This document shows positions 6,074 to 35,422 of a stretch of 41,483 bases of DNA, piece after piece. Position numbers and translations under genes: made by a program. The notes below the pieces were generated by a model. That model made no database searches, was not told where the DNA came from, and saw only the letters and a list, made by a program, of their open reading frames with translations. The DNA lies in the IMG/VR virus record IMGVR_UViG_2565956725_000003, positions 1-41,483 of that record. One strand, given 5' to 3'. Numbering within the stretch: the stretch's first letter is position 1; the number at the start of each line of letters is the position of its first letter. Source of the stretch: a virus (taxonomy: Duplodnaviria > Heunggongvirae > Uroviricota > Caudoviricetes).

Positions 6074-6176
6074 GTTAAATCTCCAGATAGTCGCAGCACC
6101 CGTTGCGCCGCATATCTGGTTATTCTATTACCTGAAAAACCACATATGGATAGAAAGACTGTAAATACGAATAGAT

Positions 6177-6193
6177 ATTACCTTTCGGGTAAT
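6177..6193. promoter_or_regulatory. operator-like 17-bp palindrome ATTACC-N5-GGTAAT (copy 1)
   Basis: ATTACCTTTCGGGTAAT, perfect 6+6 inverted repeat, in the divergent region between the tailspike start and the SOS-box ORF. Confidence 0.6.
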
Positions 6194-6229: not shown

Positions 6230-6249
6230 TACTGTATAAATATACAGTT
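6230..6249 (+). promoter_or_regulatory. LexA (SOS) box inside a sigma70-like promoter
   Basis: TACTGTATAAATATACAGTT matches the CTGT-N8-ACAG consensus; sits between TTGATA (6226-6231) and TATTAC (6249-6254), 20 nt upstream of the ORF at 6269. Confidence 0.8.
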
Positions 6250-6268: not shown

Positions 6269-6526
6269 ATGCAGCAGTATCACTATCCACTGGAAGACGG
6301 ATTTACCGAAAGGATTCACACGCCGGGAGGCGTCAGGTCACTGGTGGAGGGATCGCACTTGATGAAATTACTCCGGGATCTCGATAAGGATGGATTTAAT
6401 GTCGATGGCCCACTTGCCGAACTGACTGCACTGATTAACTACGTCACCAGCTCACAGATGTCTATGCAGGATCTGCAAACACATCTCGACTATTGTGCCG
6501 AACAATTACGAAAGCAAACCAGATAA
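6269..6526 (+). CDS. small SOS-controlled protein, paralogue of the Bro protein C-terminal domain (candidate antirepressor)
   Basis: 85 aa, RBS GGAG; aligns with the last ~65 aa of the 6840..7532 product (shared IH-P-GV, LM-LL, DG-V-G, AELT, QTH-Y). Confidence 0.7.
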   Translation: MQQYHYPLEDGFTERIHTPGGVRSLVEGSHLMKLLRDLDKDGFNVDGPLAELTALINYVTSSQMSMQDLQTHLDYCAEQLRKQTR

Positions 6527-6556: not shown

Positions 6557-6573
6557 TTTACCTTTGCGGTAAA
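6557..6573. promoter_or_regulatory. operator-like palindrome (copy 2) nested in a larger inverted repeat
   Basis: TTTACCTTTGCGGTAAA, flanked symmetrically by GGAGTGC (6545-6551) and GCACTCC (6582-6588). Confidence 0.55.
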
Positions 6574-6686: not shown

Positions 6687-6839
6687 TGTGTAAAGCGCAC
6701 CTATTCTATGGTGGGCTGTGTGGGGGCACCGAAAGGTGCGCCGGGTTCCTTTGTAGCCGGTAAGACCAACTCTGCACAGTTCACCACCATCTGATTGGTC
6801 TCAGCGGTGGTGATTAACCTAACTACAAAGGTGATCGCC

Positions 6840-7532
6840 ATGAATACCAAACCTTCCATCTTTTCCTTTGAGTCATCCTGCCAGATCCGTATGTTCATGA
6901 TTGACGGAGAACCTTGGTTTGTCACCAAAGATGTGTGCAATGCTTTGAATATTGATGTTACACAAGCGAGAAAACTTGATAAAAAAGGCTGGAACAAAAA
7001 GGGGCTGTATTCAATACAGACCCCTGGTGGAATACAAGAACTATCCATCGTTTCAGAATCAGGTCTCTACATCCTTATTCTGCGTTGCAAAGAGGCAATG
7101 ACAGAGGGAACGAGAGCATTCAGATTTCTTGAATGGGTTACAGGTGAGGTTCTTCCTCAGATCCGCCGCACCGGAAGTTACATTAAAAACTCGCTCCCGC
7201 AGGAAGAACGCATAAAGATGGTTGCCGACCAGGTAGCCAACGCCACGGCGTCAGCAGTAATGCAGGCGATGAAGATAGAGAACAAAACCTACAGTGCCCC
7301 GCTGAAGCCCGGCTACCGCAGCCTGATTCACTCGCCGTCTGGTGTTCTCGGCCTGACGGAGAACTCACTGCTGATGAATCTGCTGAACCAGTTACAGGAA
7401 GACGGGCACGACGTATCGGGCGCGGCGGCGGAACTGACCACCATGTTCTGCTACATCGTCGGTGTGAGTAAATGCCTGCGTGATATCCAGACCCACGCGG
7501 AATACATCAACGACAAGGCAGGGGTCTTCTGA
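6840..7532 (+). CDS. Bro-N domain protein (antirepressor-like)
   Basis: N-terminal Bro-N signature (FSFESSCQIRMFMIDGEPWFVTKDVCNALNI ... GLYILILRC ... FLEWVTGEVLPQIRRTGSY); start at ATG 6840 with RBS AAAGGTGA. Confidence 0.85.
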   Translation: MNTKPSIFSFESSCQIRMFMIDGEPWFVTKDVCNALNIDVTQARKLDKKGWNKKGLYSIQTPGGIQELSIVSESGLYILILRCKEAMTEGTRAFRFLEWVTGEVLPQIRRTGSYIKNSLPQEERIKMVADQVANATASAVMQAMKIENKTYSAPLKPGYRSLIHSPSGVLGLTENSLLMNLLNQLQEDGHDVSGAAAELTTMFCYIVGVSKCLRDIQTHAEYINDKAGVF

Positions 7533-7597: not shown

Positions 7598-7614
7598 ATT
7601 ACCCCAAAGGTAAG
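7598..7614. promoter_or_regulatory. operator-like palindrome (copy 3)
   Basis: ATTACCCCAAAGGTAAG upstream of the two-gene cassette; further GTAAC-N13-GTTACC half-sites at 7626-7650. Confidence 0.55.
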
Positions 7615-19476: not shown

Positions 19477-20084
19477 CAGGACAACCTCGCAATGGTAAAC
19501 TCATCAACCGGTGGCTGTGGTTCCTGTGATTCATTCTGGCTATGCGAGCCAGCACTAAGAATCACGCGATTGTACATATTGAGGGCAAACGTACCGAGGT
19601 CTGCATTCCCAGTCAGCGCCATGTTAATAGCTGCCGCAAGACGCCAGGCCAACGCCTCCATAAAAATGGCATCAAACATGTTCACATCTGTAACGCGAGA
19701 GACATACTTGAGCCATGCCTGCGGCTGGTCTGTGTAGATCAACTTTCCTGTTCCGTTGGTGTCTGCACCAACTTCGTACTGAACGCGCATTGCTGCTGTT
19801 GGATTGCGTACACCAGGAAGCATAATTTCAGTAATGCGCAGACAATCGGACGGGTACTGATACGCATATTCCCAGTCAGGCGGTGGATTGCTCGTATCTG
19901 CAAGCGCCACGCGTTTGGTAGCAAAGTTCCAGTCAAAATCAGAAAGCACAGCATCACGGCAGGCCTCAAAGTGCAGCGAACATTCCCCCGCTTCCTTGCT
20001 GGCTTCCGTCAGGCTGTTAATGCTGCGGCTATTGCCAATATTGGACAGCGCACGATTACAGATCTCTACTACAGAGGCCATCAC
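19476..20084 (-). CDS. tail tubular protein A-like (adaptor/gatekeeper)
   Basis: 202 aa; N-terminal pattern resembles T7 gp11 as recalled. Confidence 0.55.
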   Translation of the reverse strand: MMASVVEICNRALSNIGNSRSINSLTEASKEAGECSLHFEACRDAVLSDFDWNFATKRVALADTSNPPPDWEYAYQYPSDCLRITEIMLPGVRNPTAAMRVQYEVGADTNGTGKLIYTDQPQAWLKYVSRVTDVNMFDAIFMEALAWRLAAAINMALTGNADLGTFALNMYNRVILSAGSHSQNESQEPQPPVDEFTIARLS

Positions 20085-25182: not shown

Positions 25183-25270
25183 ATCAATGACTCCGTACGC
25201 AATTAAATTATTACCAATTTAACCACATATGATTTATTTATCGTAGGTAGTTGACATTTAACGCACAAAT

Positions 25271-25287
25271 TATTACCTTTCAGGTAA
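25271..25287. promoter_or_regulatory. operator-like palindrome (copy 4)
   Basis: ATTACCTTTCAGGTAAC, 15 bp downstream of a TTGACA hexamer (25250-25255), upstream of the tRNA and of the portal operon. Confidence 0.55.
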
Positions 25288-27827: not shown

Positions 27828-28420
27828 TGATTACCATCCTGACGTTCTTTGAGTCGCTTCCTGGCTGCTGCTATGCGATCAGCAATTGTCACATTCACAT
27901 TAACATCCAGACGTTCTTTGAACGCGTTGACATCAACATGCTTACCAATCAGCTCAAGGTTCTTCACCTTGTCAGGCCATTTAATTTTTTTGAGGATTGT
28001 CTCTATCGAATCCTCGTTCATGTTCATGATGGTCGATGACAGATCAAAGCCACTAAGCGTAGTGCGCCAGATTTTCGGCCACTCGCGGATTGGCTTAAGG
28101 CTCCCATCGTCGTTGAGGATGTCGATCACGTCCATCTGGTCGATCTCCACCAGGCGCATGAGAACGTAATCAGCACTGACGCGCATTCGTTTGTTGCGCT
28201 CTTCCATCAGCTCGGCAATCCGTTTTTGAATGCGTTCATCGCGCATCATGACACTGGCTTTAACTGCCGCTGTATTTGGGGAGAATCCTGCGTTAATCGC
28301 TGCCTGAGTCTGGTTTTCAGGCGTTTTGATGTATGACTGGCAATAAGCCTCCTGCATTGCTGTTAGTGGCTTAAATTGCGTTGATTTGCGTTTATAGGTT
28401 TTAGGTTCAGCAGGCATCAT
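27824..28420 (-). CDS. terminase small subunit
   Basis: About 198 aa from ATG 28420/28417; helix-turn-helix-like KPLTAMQEAYCQSYIKTP...TQAAINAGFS; the ORF-track N-terminal extension is rejected. Confidence 0.75.
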   Translation of the reverse strand: MMPAEPKTYKRKSTQFKPLTAMQEAYCQSYIKTPENQTQAAINAGFSPNTAAVKASVMMRDERIQKRIAELMEERNKRMRVSADYVLMRLVEIDQMDVIDILNDDGSLKPIREWPKIWRTTLSGFDLSSTIMNMNEDSIETILKKIKWPDKVKNLELIGKHVDVNAFKERLDVNVNVTIADRIAAARKRLKERQDGNQ

Positions 28421-28436
28421 AACCACCGTGGTAATA

Positions 28437-28453
28437 GTTACCGTTGTGGTAAT
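28437..28453. promoter_or_regulatory. operator-like palindrome (copy 5) just upstream of the terminase small subunit
   Basis: GTTACCGTTGTGGTAAT within a GGTAATAGT direct repeat, 17 bp from the start codon. Confidence 0.55.
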
Positions 28454-32102: not shown

Positions 32103-32119
32103 TTTACCTCTGAGGTAAT
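32103..32119. promoter_or_regulatory. operator-like palindrome (copy 6)
   Basis: TTTACCTCTGAGGTAAT overlapping the RBS/start of the 31756..32100 gene. Confidence 0.5.
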
Positions 32120-32164
32120 TAAAAACCACATAAGACATGAAATCAATAGAGTTTATAATATTTT

Positions 32165-32181
32165 GTTACCTAACAGGTAAT
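32165..32181. promoter_or_regulatory. operator-like palindrome (copy 7)
   Basis: GTTACCTAACAGGTAAT, 62 bp from copy 6, in the gap downstream of the P-like gene. Confidence 0.55.
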
Positions 32182-32994: not shown

Positions 32995-33796
32995 CCCACA
33001 CCCCTTCTATCCAGTCAGTGTTATTCCAGTCAAGCTCATCGCTTTTCCCGGCATTTTTTGATTTTCCCCTGATATGATTTACGTGCCTGGCGAATTTTTG
33101 TTCCCACTGAACCTGCGTGAACACTTTGCCCTCAGCCATCCAGTAATCCCGGAATGCAGCAAGTTCAGCAGGTGTAAATTCCGGTTCCGGCAGGGCCGTT
33201 CCCCACAGCGCAGCACGCCGCCGAAAATCTGGCGACGGTAGCCAGCCATCTGTCATCGGAAATTTCCCGATGGGTTCACTCAGGCCATCCAGAAATTCAG
33301 GTTCTGCCACCTGCAACGGCGTACTGTTCGCTTCACTGGTCGGAGCACCCTCGCGCACGTGCGCTATGTGTGGGGTTTTATATATATCTTCCTCTTCCTC
33401 TTCCTCTGGTAACTCCTTTTGTAACGCTGTTGGCGTTACTTTTTGCGTTACTCGTTTTCGATGCTCTGCCACTCTTCTATTCGTAAGTGCACGTTTTTTC
33501 GATGATTCTCCATTATGTCGCTCAAAGTTTGGAAGAATTAGTTTGCCGTCATGATAAGCAAGCCATCCGACGCTAATGAGGGCGTCAGCAAATCCTGTAA
33601 TAAAAGCGAGTCTATCAAGTACTCCTTTTGTAACGCTGCCAGCGTTACCGTCTATTGTTTGCTGGTCAGCCCATGCCCATATACGAACCAGCTTTCCAAG
33701 AACAGCATCTGGATCAATACCCAGAATTTCTGCTATCTGAAAAATTTCAGGTTTATCAGGAGTGATAACTTCAACCTTAATCCAGCTGCTTGCCAT
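32966..33796 (-). CDS. replication initiator (O-like)
   Basis: 276 aa from the second ATG (RBS AGAGGGG); acidic linker; C-terminal DnaT-like segment; ori-like palindromes lie inside the gene. Confidence 0.65.
   Translation of the reverse strand: MASSWIKVEVITPDKPEIFQIAEILGIDPDAVLGKLVRIWAWADQQTIDGNAGSVTKGVLDRLAFITGFADALISVGWLAYHDGKLILPNFERHNGESSKKRALTNRRVAEHRKRVTQKVTPTALQKELPEEEEEEDIYKTPHIAHVREGAPTSEANSTPLQVAEPEFLDGLSEPIGKFPMTDGWLPSPDFRRRAALWGTALPEPEFTPAELAAFRDYWMAEGKVFTQVQWEQKFARHVNHIRGKSKNAGKSDELDWNNTDWIEGVWDEINSRTSQ
33412..33648. repeat. ori-like iterons: two 19-bp palindromes GTAACGC-N5-GCGTTAC within an 18-bp direct repeat
   Basis: 33421-33439 and 33630-33648, each preceded by ACTCCTTTT; extra half-site GCGTTAC at 33445-33451; A+T tract 33376-33389; all inside the O-like gene linker. 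Confidence 0.55.
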
Positions 33797-33989: not shown

Positions 33990-34097
33990 TTTTTCCGCCC
34001 CTTTTTGTTATTGATATTGGCTATTTTGCACAATTGGAAAATTTGATCAACCAGATTTGGTTTTTTATTACCCTTAAGGTGCGAATAGATATGAAAA

Positions 34098-34115
34098 GAC
34101 CGCCGGATGGCGGTC
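34098..34115 (-). terminator. terminator-like hairpin downstream of the cro-like gene
   Basis: GACCGCC-GGAT-GGCGGTC; on the minus strand followed by TTTTCAT. Confidence 0.45.
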
Positions 34116-34137
34116 TACAGAGGGTTGTGGCTGGATA

Positions 34138-34368
34138 TCATGAGTAGAAGAAGTATGCCAGTTCTGCTTTTGAGCGCAGCCATTGTCTTGTTTTACAGGC
34201 TTTAAAAAGCCCATTCATCAATACTTTACCTGGCATTTTGCGCTTACCTGTTAAGTGAGTCTGGATATAGTGACTCGTCGTTCCGGCTTCCTGTGCGAAG
34301 GCTTCACGCTCATCCGGAGTAAGTGCAAGCCAGTGCTTTTTGAAATCGAAATGTCCGTTATCGCTCAT
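34138..34368 (-). CDS. Cro-like / YdaS-family HTH regulator
   Basis: 76 aa, divergent from the repressor gene across the operator-bearing intergenic region; HTH segment TSHYIQTHLTGKRKMPGKVL. Confidence 0.6.
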   Translation of the reverse strand: MSDNGHFDFKKHWLALTPDEREAFAQEAGTTSHYIQTHLTGKRKMPGKVLMNGLFKACKTRQWLRSKAELAYFFYS

Positions 34369-34434
34369 AGCTATTGCCTGATATTTATTTCAGATAATAA
34401 ATATTCACCCATAAGGTAACAAAAATCAAGGATA

Positions 34435-34451
34435 GTTACCTGTGGGGTGCA
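34435..34451. promoter_or_regulatory. operator-like site, imperfect (OR2-like)
   Basis: GTTACCTGTGGGGTGCA; left half conserved, right half GGTGC; tandem with copy 8. Confidence 0.45.
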
Positions 34452-34468
34452 TTTACCTGTTGGGTAAT
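34452..34468. promoter_or_regulatory. operator-like palindrome (copy 8, OR-like)
   Basis: TTTACCTGTTGGGTAAT in the 154-bp region between the divergent cro-like and repressor genes; GGTAAC half-site at 34415-34420. Confidence 0.65.
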
Positions 34469-34522
34469 ATTGCTTTAAATTGAATCATCTACTGATTCAT
34501 ATATGAGGCGATTTTCCAGAAA

Positions 34523-35107
34523 ATGAAAAGTATCCAGGACGTCCGCAGGCAAAATCTCAACGACTTGATCGACCGTGAATTCAATGGTGTTCAGACGCGG
34601 ATGGCAGAAAAACTTGGAACTCAGGCAAATCTGGTAAACCGCTGGGCTCTTGGCAAGAAGGTTATCGGCGACCAGGTTGCACGAAAAATTGAAGCTGCCG
34701 CCAATAAACCCCGTAACTGGCTTGATATTGATCGTTCGCTTTCTCAGGAGGGTTTTCAGCCTGTCGGCCCGAGCGATATAGGTCAGCTGGCGGCTCACAA
34801 CCTGGAACGCTGGATGAGCGAAAGCCGCGACCTTTCAACACAGGGAAAACTTCACCGCGCATCCGGCGTCGCCCAGGTGACAATCAGCCGCCTGTTAAAC
34901 AATGAGGTCAGCGTTTCCATTTCCACCCTGGAGAATGTTGCATCCGCATTCGGGCGTCACGGATATGAACTACTAATTCACCCGCACGACCCTGCGACTA
35001 TCAACTATGACCGCTCGCGCTACGCATTGTTACCCGAAGCCGAGAAAGCAAAGATCGAAAGTTACATTGAATTTGTCATCAACCAGAACGAAAAAAACAA
35101 ACAATAA
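34523..35107 (+). CDS. prophage repressor, dual HTH, no autocleavage domain
   Basis: 194 aa; two HTH-like segments (residues about 10-60 and 95-150); no S24 peptidase motifs; divergent from the cro-like gene; followed by a strong terminator. Confidence 0.7.
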   Translation: MKSIQDVRRQNLNDLIDREFNGVQTRMAEKLGTQANLVNRWALGKKVIGDQVARKIEAAANKPRNWLDIDRSLSQEGFQPVGPSDIGQLAAHNLERWMSESRDLSTQGKLHRASGVAQVTISRLLNNEVSVSISTLENVASAFGRHGYELLIHPHDPATINYDRSRYALLPEAEKAKIESYIEFVINQNEKNKQ

Positions 35108-35129
35108 AATCATATTTTTCAGTAAGTAA

Positions 35130-35152
35130 GCCGCCTTCTGGCGGCTTTTTTA
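35130..35152 (+). terminator. rho-independent terminator after the repressor gene
   Basis: GCCGCC-TTCT-GGCGGC followed by TTTTTTATT. Confidence 0.8.
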
Positions 35153-35163
35153 TTGCCTGTTCG

Positions 35164-35180
35164 ATTACCTGATAGGTAAT
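35164..35180. promoter_or_regulatory. operator-like palindrome (copy 9, OL-like)
   Basis: ATTACCTGATAGGTAAT, perfect, 19 bp upstream of TTGACA at 35199-35204. Confidence 0.65.
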
Positions 35181-35198
35181 TTTTTTAACTCATATCTA

Positions 35199-35227
35199 TT
35201 GACATCAAACCAAATACGCATAATTAT
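35199..35227 (+). promoter_or_regulatory. candidate early promoter (pL-like)
   Basis: TTGACA, 16-17 bp spacer, TAATTA/AATTAT; the -10 overlaps palindrome copy 10. Confidence 0.45.
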
Positions 35228-35242
35228 TACCTCAACGGTAAC
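35226..35242. promoter_or_regulatory. operator-like palindrome (copy 10)
   Basis: ATTACCTCAACGGTAAC overlapping the candidate -10; extra GGTAAC half-site at 35250-35255. Confidence 0.6.
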
Positions 35243-35260
35243 AGACCGAGGTAACAAGTT

Positions 35261-35422
35261 ATGCAGTGGAAAATCATCAACGGTTGGTACTGCGTTACTG
35301 CATGCGGATTCATGAGCTGGAAGTTCCGCACCTTACAGGAAGGCATTAAGTGGGCTTTCGTCAGCAAAGAAGCTCGCGATGTGGCCAACGATAACGAGAT
35401 ATGGGAGCAGGTTAGCAAATGA
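35261..35422 (+). CDS. small Trp-rich protein, first gene of the early operon (not in ORF track)
   Basis: 53 aa, RBS GAGGT, ATGA overlap with the next gene; preferred over the antisense 63-aa track ORF. Confidence 0.45.
   Translation: MQWKIINGWYCVTACGFMSWKFRTLQEGIKWAFVSKEARDVANDNEIWEQVSK

What the first reader, a model, noticed from the sequence alone, without database searches (positions are those of the whole stretch)
34413..34469. Immunity-region operator cluster between the divergent cro-like and repressor genes
The 154-bp divergent region holds tandem sites: TTTACCTGTTGGGTAAT (34452-34468), an adjacent imperfect site GTTACCTGTGGGGTGCA (34435-34451) and a GGTAAC half-site (34415-34420), spaced about 19 bp apart like a tripartite OR. 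A leftward promoter candidate (TTGATT-17-GAATAT on the minus strand) overlaps the half-site region. The graded site quality is what a bistable switch needs.
Basis: partly seen in the sequence, partly recalled or inferred. Interest (0 to 1): 0.55.

Follow-up and report, generated by a model that had tools for sequence, protein, structure and literature searches.

The report
Repressor operators of phiV10-like prophage
The short repeats between the two divergent regulator genes are real repressor-binding sites of a very common phiV10/epsilon15-type E. coli prophage; they are the local copy of an operator motif already annotated in phage epsilon15, so the finding is correct but largely ordinary.

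Summary
The window is a phiV10/epsilon15-like (Uetakevirus) prophage. They are copies of the inverted repeat TTACC-N5-GGTAA: 10 perfect copies in the window against 0.01 expected. The gap between the 76-aa HTH gene and the 194-aa repressor gene holds three sites. O1 (34453-34467) is perfect, O2 (34436-34450) has 2 mismatches, and O3 (34405-34419) has 1 mismatch; O3 is a full site, not a half-site. Centre spacing is 17 and 31 bp, not about 19.

The same three sites sit at the same distances from the repressor start codon in every full-length homologue examined, across E. coli, Enterobacter, Klebsiella, Salmonella, Citrobacter, Erwinia and others. Half-sites are nearly invariant while the N5 spacers vary freely.

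The repressor is not lambda CI. It is a homologue of the SPC32H Rep tetramer (PDB 5D50), and the window also carries its antirepressor Ant behind a LexA box. Sites also lie outside the immunity region, at the heads of other transcription units, often as pairs 62 bp apart. The epsilon15 GenBank record already annotates such sites as repressor-binding.

Verdict: a real operator cluster and a new member of a known kind. The lambda analogy holds only in part.

The parts
34453..34467 (.). O1: perfect operator TTACCTGTTGGGTAA. Its centre is 63 bp upstream of the rep ATG, and it overlaps the -35 and spacer of the rightward promoter candidate.
   Evidence: It is perfect and at -61 to -63 in all homologous loci. 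All 10 half-site columns are invariant.
34436..34450 (.). O2: degenerate operator TTACCTGTGGGGTGC (2 mismatches, right half GGTGC). It lies between the two -35 hexamers.
   Evidence: The same position (-78 to -80) holds a perfect site in epsilon15, SPC32H and Klebsiella phages, and GGTGC or GGTAC in the phiV10 clade and Scandinavium. 8 of 10 half-site columns are invariant.
34405..34419 (.). O3: 1-mismatch operator TCACCCATAAGGTAA. It lies in the spacer and at the -10 edge of the leftward promoter.
   Evidence: It is imperfect at -108 to -111 in every relative, always as a GGTGN/TCACC variant.
34401..34429 (-). Leftward (lytic, cro-side) promoter candidate: TTGATT (34429-34424), 17 nt, GAATAT (34406-34401); or an 18-nt spacer with AATATT.
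   Evidence: The hexamers were read. TTGATT is invariant in 9 diverged sequences. It is the only leftward promoter-like pair conserved in position. No transcription start site data.
34452..34481 (+). Rightward (rep-side) promoter candidate: TTTACC, 17-18 nt, TTAAAT/TAAATT.
   Evidence: It is the only rightward promoter-like pair conserved in the same alignment columns in all 9 sequences. The match is weak and lacks the ideal -10. This part is inferred.
34138..34368 (-). 76-aa Cro-like HTH protein gene (phiV10p41 / epsilon15 gp39).
   Evidence: PHROG 35 'transcriptional repressor', E 5.6e-13. AlphaFold model with pLDDT 87.8 and five helices; the best PDB folds are XRE HTH domains. It is 58-84% identical across clades, with invariant AGTTSHYIQ.HLT.
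34523..35107 (+). rep: 194-aa two-HTH repressor, a homologue of SPC32H Rep.
   Evidence: PDB 5D50_A, E 4e-42. Pfam HTH_3, no peptidase domain. It is 99.5% identical to the vB_EcoP_ZX5 repressor, which was tested by overexpression (PMC9782041).
34097..34116 (-). Intrinsic terminator just after the Cro-like gene.
   Evidence: It is also annotated in the phiV10 record.
35128..35147 (+). Intrinsic terminator after rep.
35165..35179 (.). OL upstream operator TTACCTGATAGGTAA, about 20 bp upstream of the PL -35.
   Evidence: It is 62 bp from its partner, and this distance is conserved.
35199..35227 (+). PL-like early promoter TTGACA-17-AATTAT, driving the recombination operon.
   Evidence: 10 of 12 consensus matches.
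35227..35241 (.). OL downstream operator TTACCTCAACGGTAA. It starts at the last base of the -10 and covers the expected transcription start.
32104..32180 (-). A second 62-bp operator pair (32166-32180 and 32104-32118). It brackets TTGATT (32146-32141)-17-TTTAAT (32123-32118), downstream of the replication genes.
   Evidence: The same 62-bp pair occurs in epsilon15 (35907/35969) and in three other genera.
28420..28452 (.). Two adjacent sites 18 bp apart (28438-28452 perfect, 28420-28434 with 1 mismatch), immediately upstream of the small terminase start.
   Evidence: The epsilon15 equivalents are at 12-26 and 30-44; the first is annotated as repressor-binding.
25273..25287 (.). Perfect site upstream of the gp3/portal operon.
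   Evidence: The epsilon15 equivalent, 2931-2947, is annotated as repressor-binding.
6178..6192 (.). Perfect site in the divergent region between the tailspike gene (-) and ant (+).
   Evidence: The epsilon15 equivalent, 19895-19911, is annotated as repressor-binding.
6558..6572 (.). Perfect site just downstream of ant.
7599..7613 (.). Perfect site in an intergenic region after the BRO-N/Ant-like gene.
   Evidence: The context was not resolved.
6232..6247 (.). LexA box CTGTATAAATATACAG, 22 bp upstream of ant.
6269..6526 (+). ant: 85-aa antirepressor.
   Evidence: PDB 5D50_E 'Anti-repressor protein', E 4e-47, about 88% identical.

Best explanation
**What it is.** The three sites are the OR-type operators of the immunity repressor (Rep) of a phiV10/epsilon15-type temperate podovirus.

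**How Rep binds.**
- Rep is an SPC32H-Rep-type protein with an N-terminal HTH DNA-binding domain, a second HTH-like domain and a C-terminal tetramerisation/Ant-binding domain.
- Pairs of N-terminal domains recognise the palindrome (A)TTACC-N5-GGTAA(T). A tetramer carries two such pairs, so it can hold two operators at once.

**Layout in the 154-bp gap (inferred).**
- Two back-to-back promoters are interleaved with the sites.
- O3 (weak) lies in the spacer and at the -10 edge of the leftward lytic promoter that drives the Cro-like gene and, past a terminator, the replication genes.
- O1 (perfect) covers the -35 and spacer of the weak rightward rep promoter.
- O2 lies between the two -35 hexamers.

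**Lysogen (inferred).** Rep fills O1/O2 and, with cooperative help, O3. This shuts the lytic promoter and limits its own synthesis.

**Other sites.** The same protein also shuts the PL-like promoter, a promoter after the replication genes and sites at the heads of the structural operons. This often happens through operator pairs 62 bp apart that bracket a promoter.

**Induction.** It does not occur by repressor cleavage. DNA damage removes LexA from the ant promoter. Ant then breaks the Rep tetramer into dimers that leave the DNA.

**Shown here.** The motif, its enrichment, its conserved positions, the selective constraint on the half-sites, the homology of Rep and Ant, and the LexA box.

**Inferred.** Which protein binds, the promoter positions, and the order of occupancy.
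For: **Motif and its placement.**
- Enrichment: 10 perfect copies against 0.01 expected.
- All 10 perfect copies lie outside real genes.

**Conservation of the three sites.**
- They sit at -61 to -63, -78 to -80 and -108 to -111 from the rep ATG in the phiV10 clade, Tyrion, BUCT554, Superficieibacter, Erwinia dacicola, Scandinavium, Klebsiella, Citrobacter, epsilon15 and SPC32H.
- 25 of 30 half-site columns are invariant, against 14 of 112 other columns and 0 of 15 spacer columns. Fisher p = 3e-13.
- Among E. coli prophage variants that are 87-99% identical, half-sites stay intact and many of the substitutions fall in the N5 spacers.

**Proteins.**
- The Rep recognition-helix segment ANLVNRW is invariant across clades that are only 42% identical overall.
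- Rep matches SPC32H Rep, PDB 5D50_A, E 4e-42.
- Ant matches 5D50_E, E 4e-47.
- LexA box upstream of ant.

**Prior annotation and literature.**
- The epsilon15 GenBank record annotates seven such sites as 'protein_bind: repressor'. Their sequences are TTACC-N5-GGTAA.
- A 99.5% identical repressor blocks lytic transcription when overexpressed (PMC9782041).
- SPC32H Rep binds palindromic sites as a tetramer and is split by Ant. This is as summarised in PMC9638917.

**Promoter logic and spacing.**
- Only two promoter-like pairs are conserved in position, one overlapped by O3 and one by O1.
- Recurrent distances between neighbouring sites: 62 bp x13, 17 bp x6, 30/31 bp x4.
Against: - There is no binding or transcription data for this phage.
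- The primary SPC32H and epsilon15 papers were not held in the library. Which operators were footprinted there is therefore unknown to me.
- The rightward promoter candidate is a weak match with no A at -10 position 2 in the 17-nt register.
- One E. coli variant (BCE049) has the leftward TTGATT changed.
- In the window and in Tyrion, a better-scoring but non-conserved leftward pair, TTGTTA-17-TATTAT, sits 7 bp downstream.
- Co-occurrence cannot separate Rep from the Cro-like protein as the binder, because both genes are always present.
Confidence: 0.8

Rival explanations
1. A lambda-like bistable CI/Cro switch. Both regulators bind the same three sites with opposite preference. The repressor activates its own promoter from the middle site, and induction occurs by repressor cleavage.
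For: - Three sites lie between divergent promoters, with a conserved quality gradient.
- The leftward gene encodes a small XRE-type HTH protein.
- The weak half-sites are always the same GGTG variant. This could mark a second specificity.
Against: - The repressor has no S24 peptidase domain and is homologous to the non-cleaved SPC32H Rep.
- Ant and a LexA box are present.
- The perfect site covers the rep-side promoter candidate and the weakest covers the lytic one. This is the reverse of lambda.
- Sites are spread over the whole genome.
- Spacing is 17/31 bp.
Confidence: 0.12
2. The palindromes are bound mainly by the Cro-like 76-aa protein or by another phage or host factor rather than by Rep. 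Rep would recognise something else.
For: - The Cro-like protein is even more conserved across clades (58-84%) than Rep (42-78%), which matches the unchanged half-site.
- Co-occurrence cannot tell the two proteins apart.
Against: - The Rep N-terminal recognition helix is invariant.
- The epsilon15 depositors assign these sites to the repressor.
- Rep is reported to bind palindromic sites as a tetramer. This fits the paired-site architecture.
- Sites at late operons make sense for a maintenance repressor.
Confidence: 0.06
3. Chance or compositional repeats with no regulatory role.
For: The region is A+T-rich and contains other small palindromes.
Against: - 10 perfect copies against 0.01 expected.
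- Conserved positions and a half-site/spacer conservation contrast across genera.
Confidence: 0.01

Closest known systems
Salmonella phage SPC32H Rep-Ant lysogeny switch (PDB 5D50, 5D4Z; Kim & Ryu 2013; Kim et al. 2016)
   Same: - Rep is homologous over its full length (E 4e-42, about 42% identity).
- Ant is about 88% identical.
- A LexA box lies at ant.
- SPC32H has the same three sites, 17 and 30 bp apart, at the same distance from the rep ATG. It also has a 62-bp pair downstream of rep.
   Different: - In SPC32H and epsilon15, O2 is a perfect site and OL has three sites. Here O2 is degenerate (GGTGC) and OL has two.
- O3's imperfect half faces the other way.
- Rep's middle and C-terminal parts are strongly diverged.
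Repressor-binding sites annotated in the Salmonella phage epsilon15 genome (GenBank AY150271; Kropinski et al. 2007)
   Same: - Same TTACC-N5-GGTAA core.
- Same locations upstream of terS, gp3/portal and the tailspike, downstream of rep, and after the replication genes.
   Different: - The epsilon15 record annotates no repressor site in the divergent rep/gp39 gap, only an IHF site. Three sites are nevertheless there (33341, 33358, 33388).
- phiV10-type records annotate none.
Lambda OR (OR1-OR2-OR3 between PRM and PR)
   Same: - Three operators are interleaved with two back-to-back promoters between a repressor gene and a small HTH gene.
- Site quality is graded.
- A second operator set lies at a PL-like promoter.
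   Different: - The repressor is of a different family and is not autocleaved.
- Spacing is 17/31 bp rather than 24/23 bp.
- The best site is on the repressor side.
- Operators also sit at late and other operons.
- Induction is by an antirepressor.
LexA-controlled antirepressor induction in Gifsy/Fels-2 prophages and coliphage 186 Tum
   Same: SOS acts through a LexA-repressed small antirepressor, not through repressor cleavage (PMC3121763 abstract).
   Different: - The repressor and antirepressor families are unrelated.
- Operator sequence and layout differ.

Membership tests
SPC32H/epsilon15-type Rep-Ant immunity system (Uetakevirus) | Repressor homologous to SPC32H Rep over its full length (N-terminal HTH, second HTH-like domain, C-terminal tetramerisation/Ant-binding region). 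| tested here: met
   residues 1-190 align to 5D50_A residues 2-197, E 4e-42; invariant residues occur in all three parts.
SPC32H/epsilon15-type Rep-Ant immunity system (Uetakevirus) | Small antirepressor Ant encoded in the same genome. | tested here: met
   6269-6526 (+) matches 5D50_E, E 4e-47, about 88% identity.
SPC32H/epsilon15-type Rep-Ant immunity system (Uetakevirus) | LexA box at the ant promoter. | tested here: met
   CTGTATAAATATACAG at 6232-6247, 22 bp upstream of the ant ATG. This is sequence evidence only.
SPC32H/epsilon15-type Rep-Ant immunity system (Uetakevirus) | Palindromic operators (A)TTACC-N5-GGTAA(T) at the positions found in epsilon15 and SPC32H. | tested here: met
SPC32H/epsilon15-type Rep-Ant immunity system (Uetakevirus) | Repressor lacks an autocleavage (S24) domain. 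| tested here: met
   only HTH families match; no peptidase family.
SPC32H/epsilon15-type Rep-Ant immunity system (Uetakevirus) | Physical binding of the Rep tetramer to these sites and its release by Ant. | not testable with these tools
   Needs EMSA or footprinting. Only a second-hand summary of the SPC32H work was readable.
Lambda-type tripartite OR (CI/Cro switch) | Three adjacent operators between divergent repressor and cro promoters. | tested here: met
Lambda-type tripartite OR (CI/Cro switch) | Repressor of the CI/LexA-like autocleaving type. | tested here: not met
Lambda-type tripartite OR (CI/Cro switch) | Strongest repressor sites over the lytic promoter, weakest over the repressor's own promoter. 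| tested here: inconclusive
   By sequence the order is reversed: perfect O1 lies over the rep-side candidate and imperfect O3 over the lytic candidate. Promoters and affinities are predictions only.
Lambda-type tripartite OR (CI/Cro switch) | Operators confined to OL and OR. | tested here: not met
   perfect sites also at 6178, 6558, 7599, 25273, 28438, 32104 and 32166.
Lambda-type tripartite OR (CI/Cro switch) | Cro binds the same operators with the opposite order of preference. | not testable with these tools
   The 76-aa protein is an XRE-type HTH by fold, but its targets are unknown.

The most novel reading that the evidence does not exclude
The conserved layout may make repression of the lytic promoter depend on tetramer integrity.

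- The site over the lytic promoter (O3) is imperfect in every clade, always as the same GGTG variant, and sits three helical turns (30-31 bp) from O2.
- The perfect O1 sits on the repressor's own promoter.
- If weak O3 is filled only when one Rep tetramer bridges O2 and O3, then Ant would release the lytic promoter first, because it splits tetramers into dimers, while autoregulation persists.
- In that reading the operator geometry is tuned to an antirepressor that attacks oligomerisation rather than DNA binding.
- The 62-bp pairs would play the same role at other promoters.
- The GGTG half-sites might in addition be the preferred targets of the Cro-like protein.
Probability: 0.25. Interest if true: 0.45.

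Novelty: new member of a known kind. Interest (0 to 1): 0.25.

Why it matters
- This prophage type is present in about 10% of complete E. coli genomes (539 of 5426). It includes O157-converting phiV10 and relatives in Salmonella, Klebsiella and Enterobacter.
- Knowing its operator set gives a ready map of the repressor regulon and predicts cross-immunity among clades that keep the same half-site.
- It also offers defined targets for engineering, for reporter phages and for testing how an antirepressor that splits a tetramer translates into promoter release.
- It does not reveal a new kind of system.

Tried and rejected
**Papers not held.**
- Kropinski 2007 (PMC2698709).
- Kim & Ryu 2013 (PMC3807360).
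- Kim 2016 (PMC4983836).
- I recall a published consensus ATTACCWDWWNGGTAAT for epsilon15. That rests on memory only. The GenBank annotation and my own scan stand in for it.
- Literature searches for operator mapping in Uetakevirus found nothing further.

**Tool results that gave nothing.**
- Pfam and NCBIfam gave no hit for the Cro-like protein.
It was redone with database homologues.

**Alternative promoters rejected.**
- Leftward TTGTTA-17-TATTAT scores best in the window but is not conserved.
- A leftward TTTAAA-18-TAAAAT over O1 exists only in the SPC32H, epsilon15 and Klebsiella clade.
- Rightward TTGCTT or TTGAAT starts lack a usable -10 (read).

**Other points.**
- Distant N-terminal-domain-only homologues (Paraburkholderia, Hydrogenovibrio, Thiomicrospira) have no TTACC-N5-GGTAA cluster, so the motif belongs to the enterobacterial family only.
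- Profile comparison of Rep and the Cro-like protein puts their HTHs in register but without significance.

Full report
**1. What the window is**

The stretch 34000-35400 is 97-98% identical to Escherichia phages phiV10, vB_EcoP_ZX5, TL-2011b and relatives of the genus Uetakevirus. It is 77% identical to Enterobacter phages Tyrion and BUCT554.

The gene order on the minus strand, to the left of the finding, is:
- a 76-aa ORF (34138-34368);
- a terminator;
- a 70-aa ORF;
- a DnaT-domain replication protein;
- a lambda-P-like protein.

On the plus strand, to the right, lie a 194-aa two-HTH protein (34523-35107), a terminator, a strong promoter and a recombination operon.

The 194-aa protein is annotated as the repressor in phiV10, ZX5 and epsilon15. 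A 99.5% identical protein stopped free-phage production and cut endolysin/holin transcripts by more than 99.9% when overexpressed (PMC9782041). That paper did not map operators.

**2. The observation**

The common core is the inverted repeat TTACC-N5-GGTAA.
- It is perfect at 34453-34467 (O1).
- It has two mismatches at 34436-34450 (O2, TTACCTGTGGGGTGC).
- It has one mismatch at 34405-34419 (O3, TCACCCATAAGGTAA).

The 'GGTAAC half-site' is therefore the right half of a full site. Centres are 17 bp (O1-O2) and 31 bp (O2-O3) apart, not about 19 bp.

The perfect pattern occurs 10 times in the window against 0.01 expected from shuffles. Chance is excluded.

**3. Conservation**

I fetched the same region from clades whose repressors are 78%, 75%, 45% and 42% identical to this one. 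These were Tyrion, BUCT554, Klebsiella phages, epsilon15 and SPC32H. I also fetched prophages in Superficieibacter, Erwinia dacicola, K. pneumoniae, two Citrobacter species and Scandinavium.

In all of them the three sites have centres at -61 to -63, -78 to -80 and -108 to -111 from the repressor ATG.
- O1 is perfect everywhere.
- O2 is perfect in the epsilon15, SPC32H and Klebsiella clades. It carries GGTGC or GGTAC in the phiV10 clade and Scandinavium.
- O3 is imperfect everywhere, always with the same A-to-G change (GGTGA, GGTGT, or TCACC on the other strand).

In a nine-sequence alignment:
- 25 of 30 half-site columns are invariant;
- 0 of 15 spacer columns are invariant;
- 14 of 112 remaining columns are invariant (Fisher p = 3e-13).

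Among E. coli prophage variants 87-99% identical to the window, the half-sites stay intact, including the imperfect ones. Many of the substitutions fall in the N5 spacers. This is the signature of sites read by a dimeric HTH protein.

**4. Which protein, and what kind of switch**

The repressor has no peptidase domain. It aligns over its whole length to the SPC32H repressor Rep (PDB 5D50_A, E 4e-42).

As summarised in PMC9638917, Rep binds palindromic DNA as a tetramer. The DNA-binding pairs are formed across dimers, and the antirepressor Ant splits the tetramer.

The window encodes an Ant about 88% identical to SPC32H Ant (6269-6526). A canonical LexA box, CTGTATAAATATACAG, lies 22 bp upstream of it.

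The N-terminal recognition segment ANLVNRW of Rep is invariant across all clades. This explains why the half-site TTACC is unchanged although the proteins are only 42% identical overall.

The epsilon15 GenBank record annotates seven 'protein_bind: repressor' features. Their sequences are this motif. That record places none in the divergent gap, where my scan finds three (33341, 33358, 33388).

The system is therefore the known epsilon15/SPC32H Rep-Ant switch, not a lambda CI/Cro switch.

**5. Promoters**

A simple sigma-70 scoring of all nine aligned sequences finds only two promoter-like pairs that stay in the same alignment columns.
- Leftward: TTGATT (34429-34424) with a -10 at 34406-34400.
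- Rightward: TTTACC (34452-34457) with TTAAAT/TAAATT (34475-34481).

O3 lies in the spacer and at the -10 edge of the leftward promoter. O1 covers the -35 and spacer of the rightward one. O2 fills the 22 bp between the two -35 hexamers.

This resembles lambda OR in plan. The site quality is reversed, however: the perfect site is on the repressor's side.

Both promoters are predictions. The rightward one is a weak match. One E. coli variant has the leftward -35 altered.

**6. The Cro-like gene**

- The 76-aa protein matches PHROG 35 'transcriptional repressor' (E 5.6e-13).
- It is modelled with confidence as a five-helix domain (pLDDT 87.8).
- Its nearest solved folds are XRE-type HTH domains: the 434 repressor DNA-binding domain, the YdaS N-terminal domain and P22 c2. 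TM scores are 0.53-0.66 and E-values are weak.
- It is 58-84% identical across clades, with an invariant AGTTSHYIQ.HLT helix-turn-helix.

'Cro-like' is a fair label for its position and fold. Its DNA targets are unknown.

**7. Beyond the finding**

The other perfect sites all lie between genes:
- between the tailspike gene and ant (6178);
- after ant (6558);
- at 7599;
- upstream of the gp3/portal operon (25273);
- directly before the small terminase start (28438, with a 1-mismatch neighbour 18 bp away);
- after the replication genes (32104 and 32166);
- at the PL-like promoter (35165 and 35227).

Four of these positions match epsilon15's annotated sites.

Two pairs are exactly 62 bp apart and bracket a promoter whose -10 abuts the downstream operator:
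- TTGACA-17-AATTAT at 35199-35227;
- TTGATT-17-TTTAAT at 32146-32118.

Across 11 loci, the distances between neighbouring sites are 62 bp thirteen times, 17 bp six times and 30/31 bp four times. Paired sites fit a repressor that carries two DNA-binding units.

**8. Verdict**

The interpretation as an immunity operator cluster is right. The lambda analogy is only partly right.

The motif and the repressor family are already described in close relatives. This is therefore a new member of a known kind.

The modest additions are:
- the three-site OR layout, which is unannotated even in epsilon15;
- its strict conservation;
- the reversed quality gradient.

Interest is low to moderate.

Noticed in passing
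window 6138-6146, 25221-25229, 32124-32132 (all minus strand): The exact 9-mer TATGTGGTT occurs three times. Each copy is 30-45 bp downstream of a perfect Rep site and is followed after 5 nt by GGTAA(T) or TTACC. It may be a shared element of middle/late promoters, such as an activator site.
   Followed up: partly
window 32104-32180 and 35165-35241; L002 (epsilon15) 32555/32617 and 35907/35969: Operator pairs exactly 62 bp apart bracket a promoter at two loci. The distance is conserved (61-63 bp) in all clades examined.
   Followed up: yes
window 34068-34082: A weak Rep-like site, TTACCCTTAAGGTGC, lies just past the terminator that follows the Cro-like gene. A 1-mismatch site sits at or near this position in Tyrion, BUCT711 and Superficieibacter. 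It may control entry into the replication genes or serve as a looping partner for O3.
   Followed up: partly
window 6795-7532 (+): This is a second antirepressor-like gene. A BRO-N/Ant-type N-terminal part is fused to a C-terminal part that matches the same PHROG 450 as the small Ant. It corresponds to the 'ORF4 anti-repressor' of ZX5.
   Followed up: partly
window 6269-6526 versus 34523-35107: Ant is about 88% identical to SPC32H Ant, whereas its target Rep is only about 42% identical to SPC32H Rep. The partners have diverged very unequally.
   Followed up: no
window 34481-34499 and 34381-34404: Two further perfect inverted repeats lie in the divergent gap. TGAATCA-N5-TGATTCA lies between the rightward -10 candidate and the rep ATG. 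ATATTTATT-N6-AATAAATAT lies near the predicted leftward transcription start. The first is kept in most E. coli variants, with a change only in the spacer, but is broken in strain LP5-1 and absent from the epsilon15 clade.
   Followed up: partly
window 33421-33439 and 33630-33648: A roughly 27-nt unit, CTCCTTTTGTAACGC-N5-GCGTTAC, is repeated 209 bp apart inside the DnaT-domain replication gene. These may be origin iterons.
   Followed up: no
L023 (E. coli BCE049) versus window 34424-34429: Among E. coli prophage variants, many of the substitutions in the gap fall in the operator N5 spacers. One variant (BCE049) has the leftward -35 TTGATT changed to TAGGTT.
   Followed up: partly
window 34369-34522: This exact intergenic region is present at >=95% identity in 539 of 5426 complete E. 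coli genomes, almost always once and on the chromosome.
   Followed up: yes
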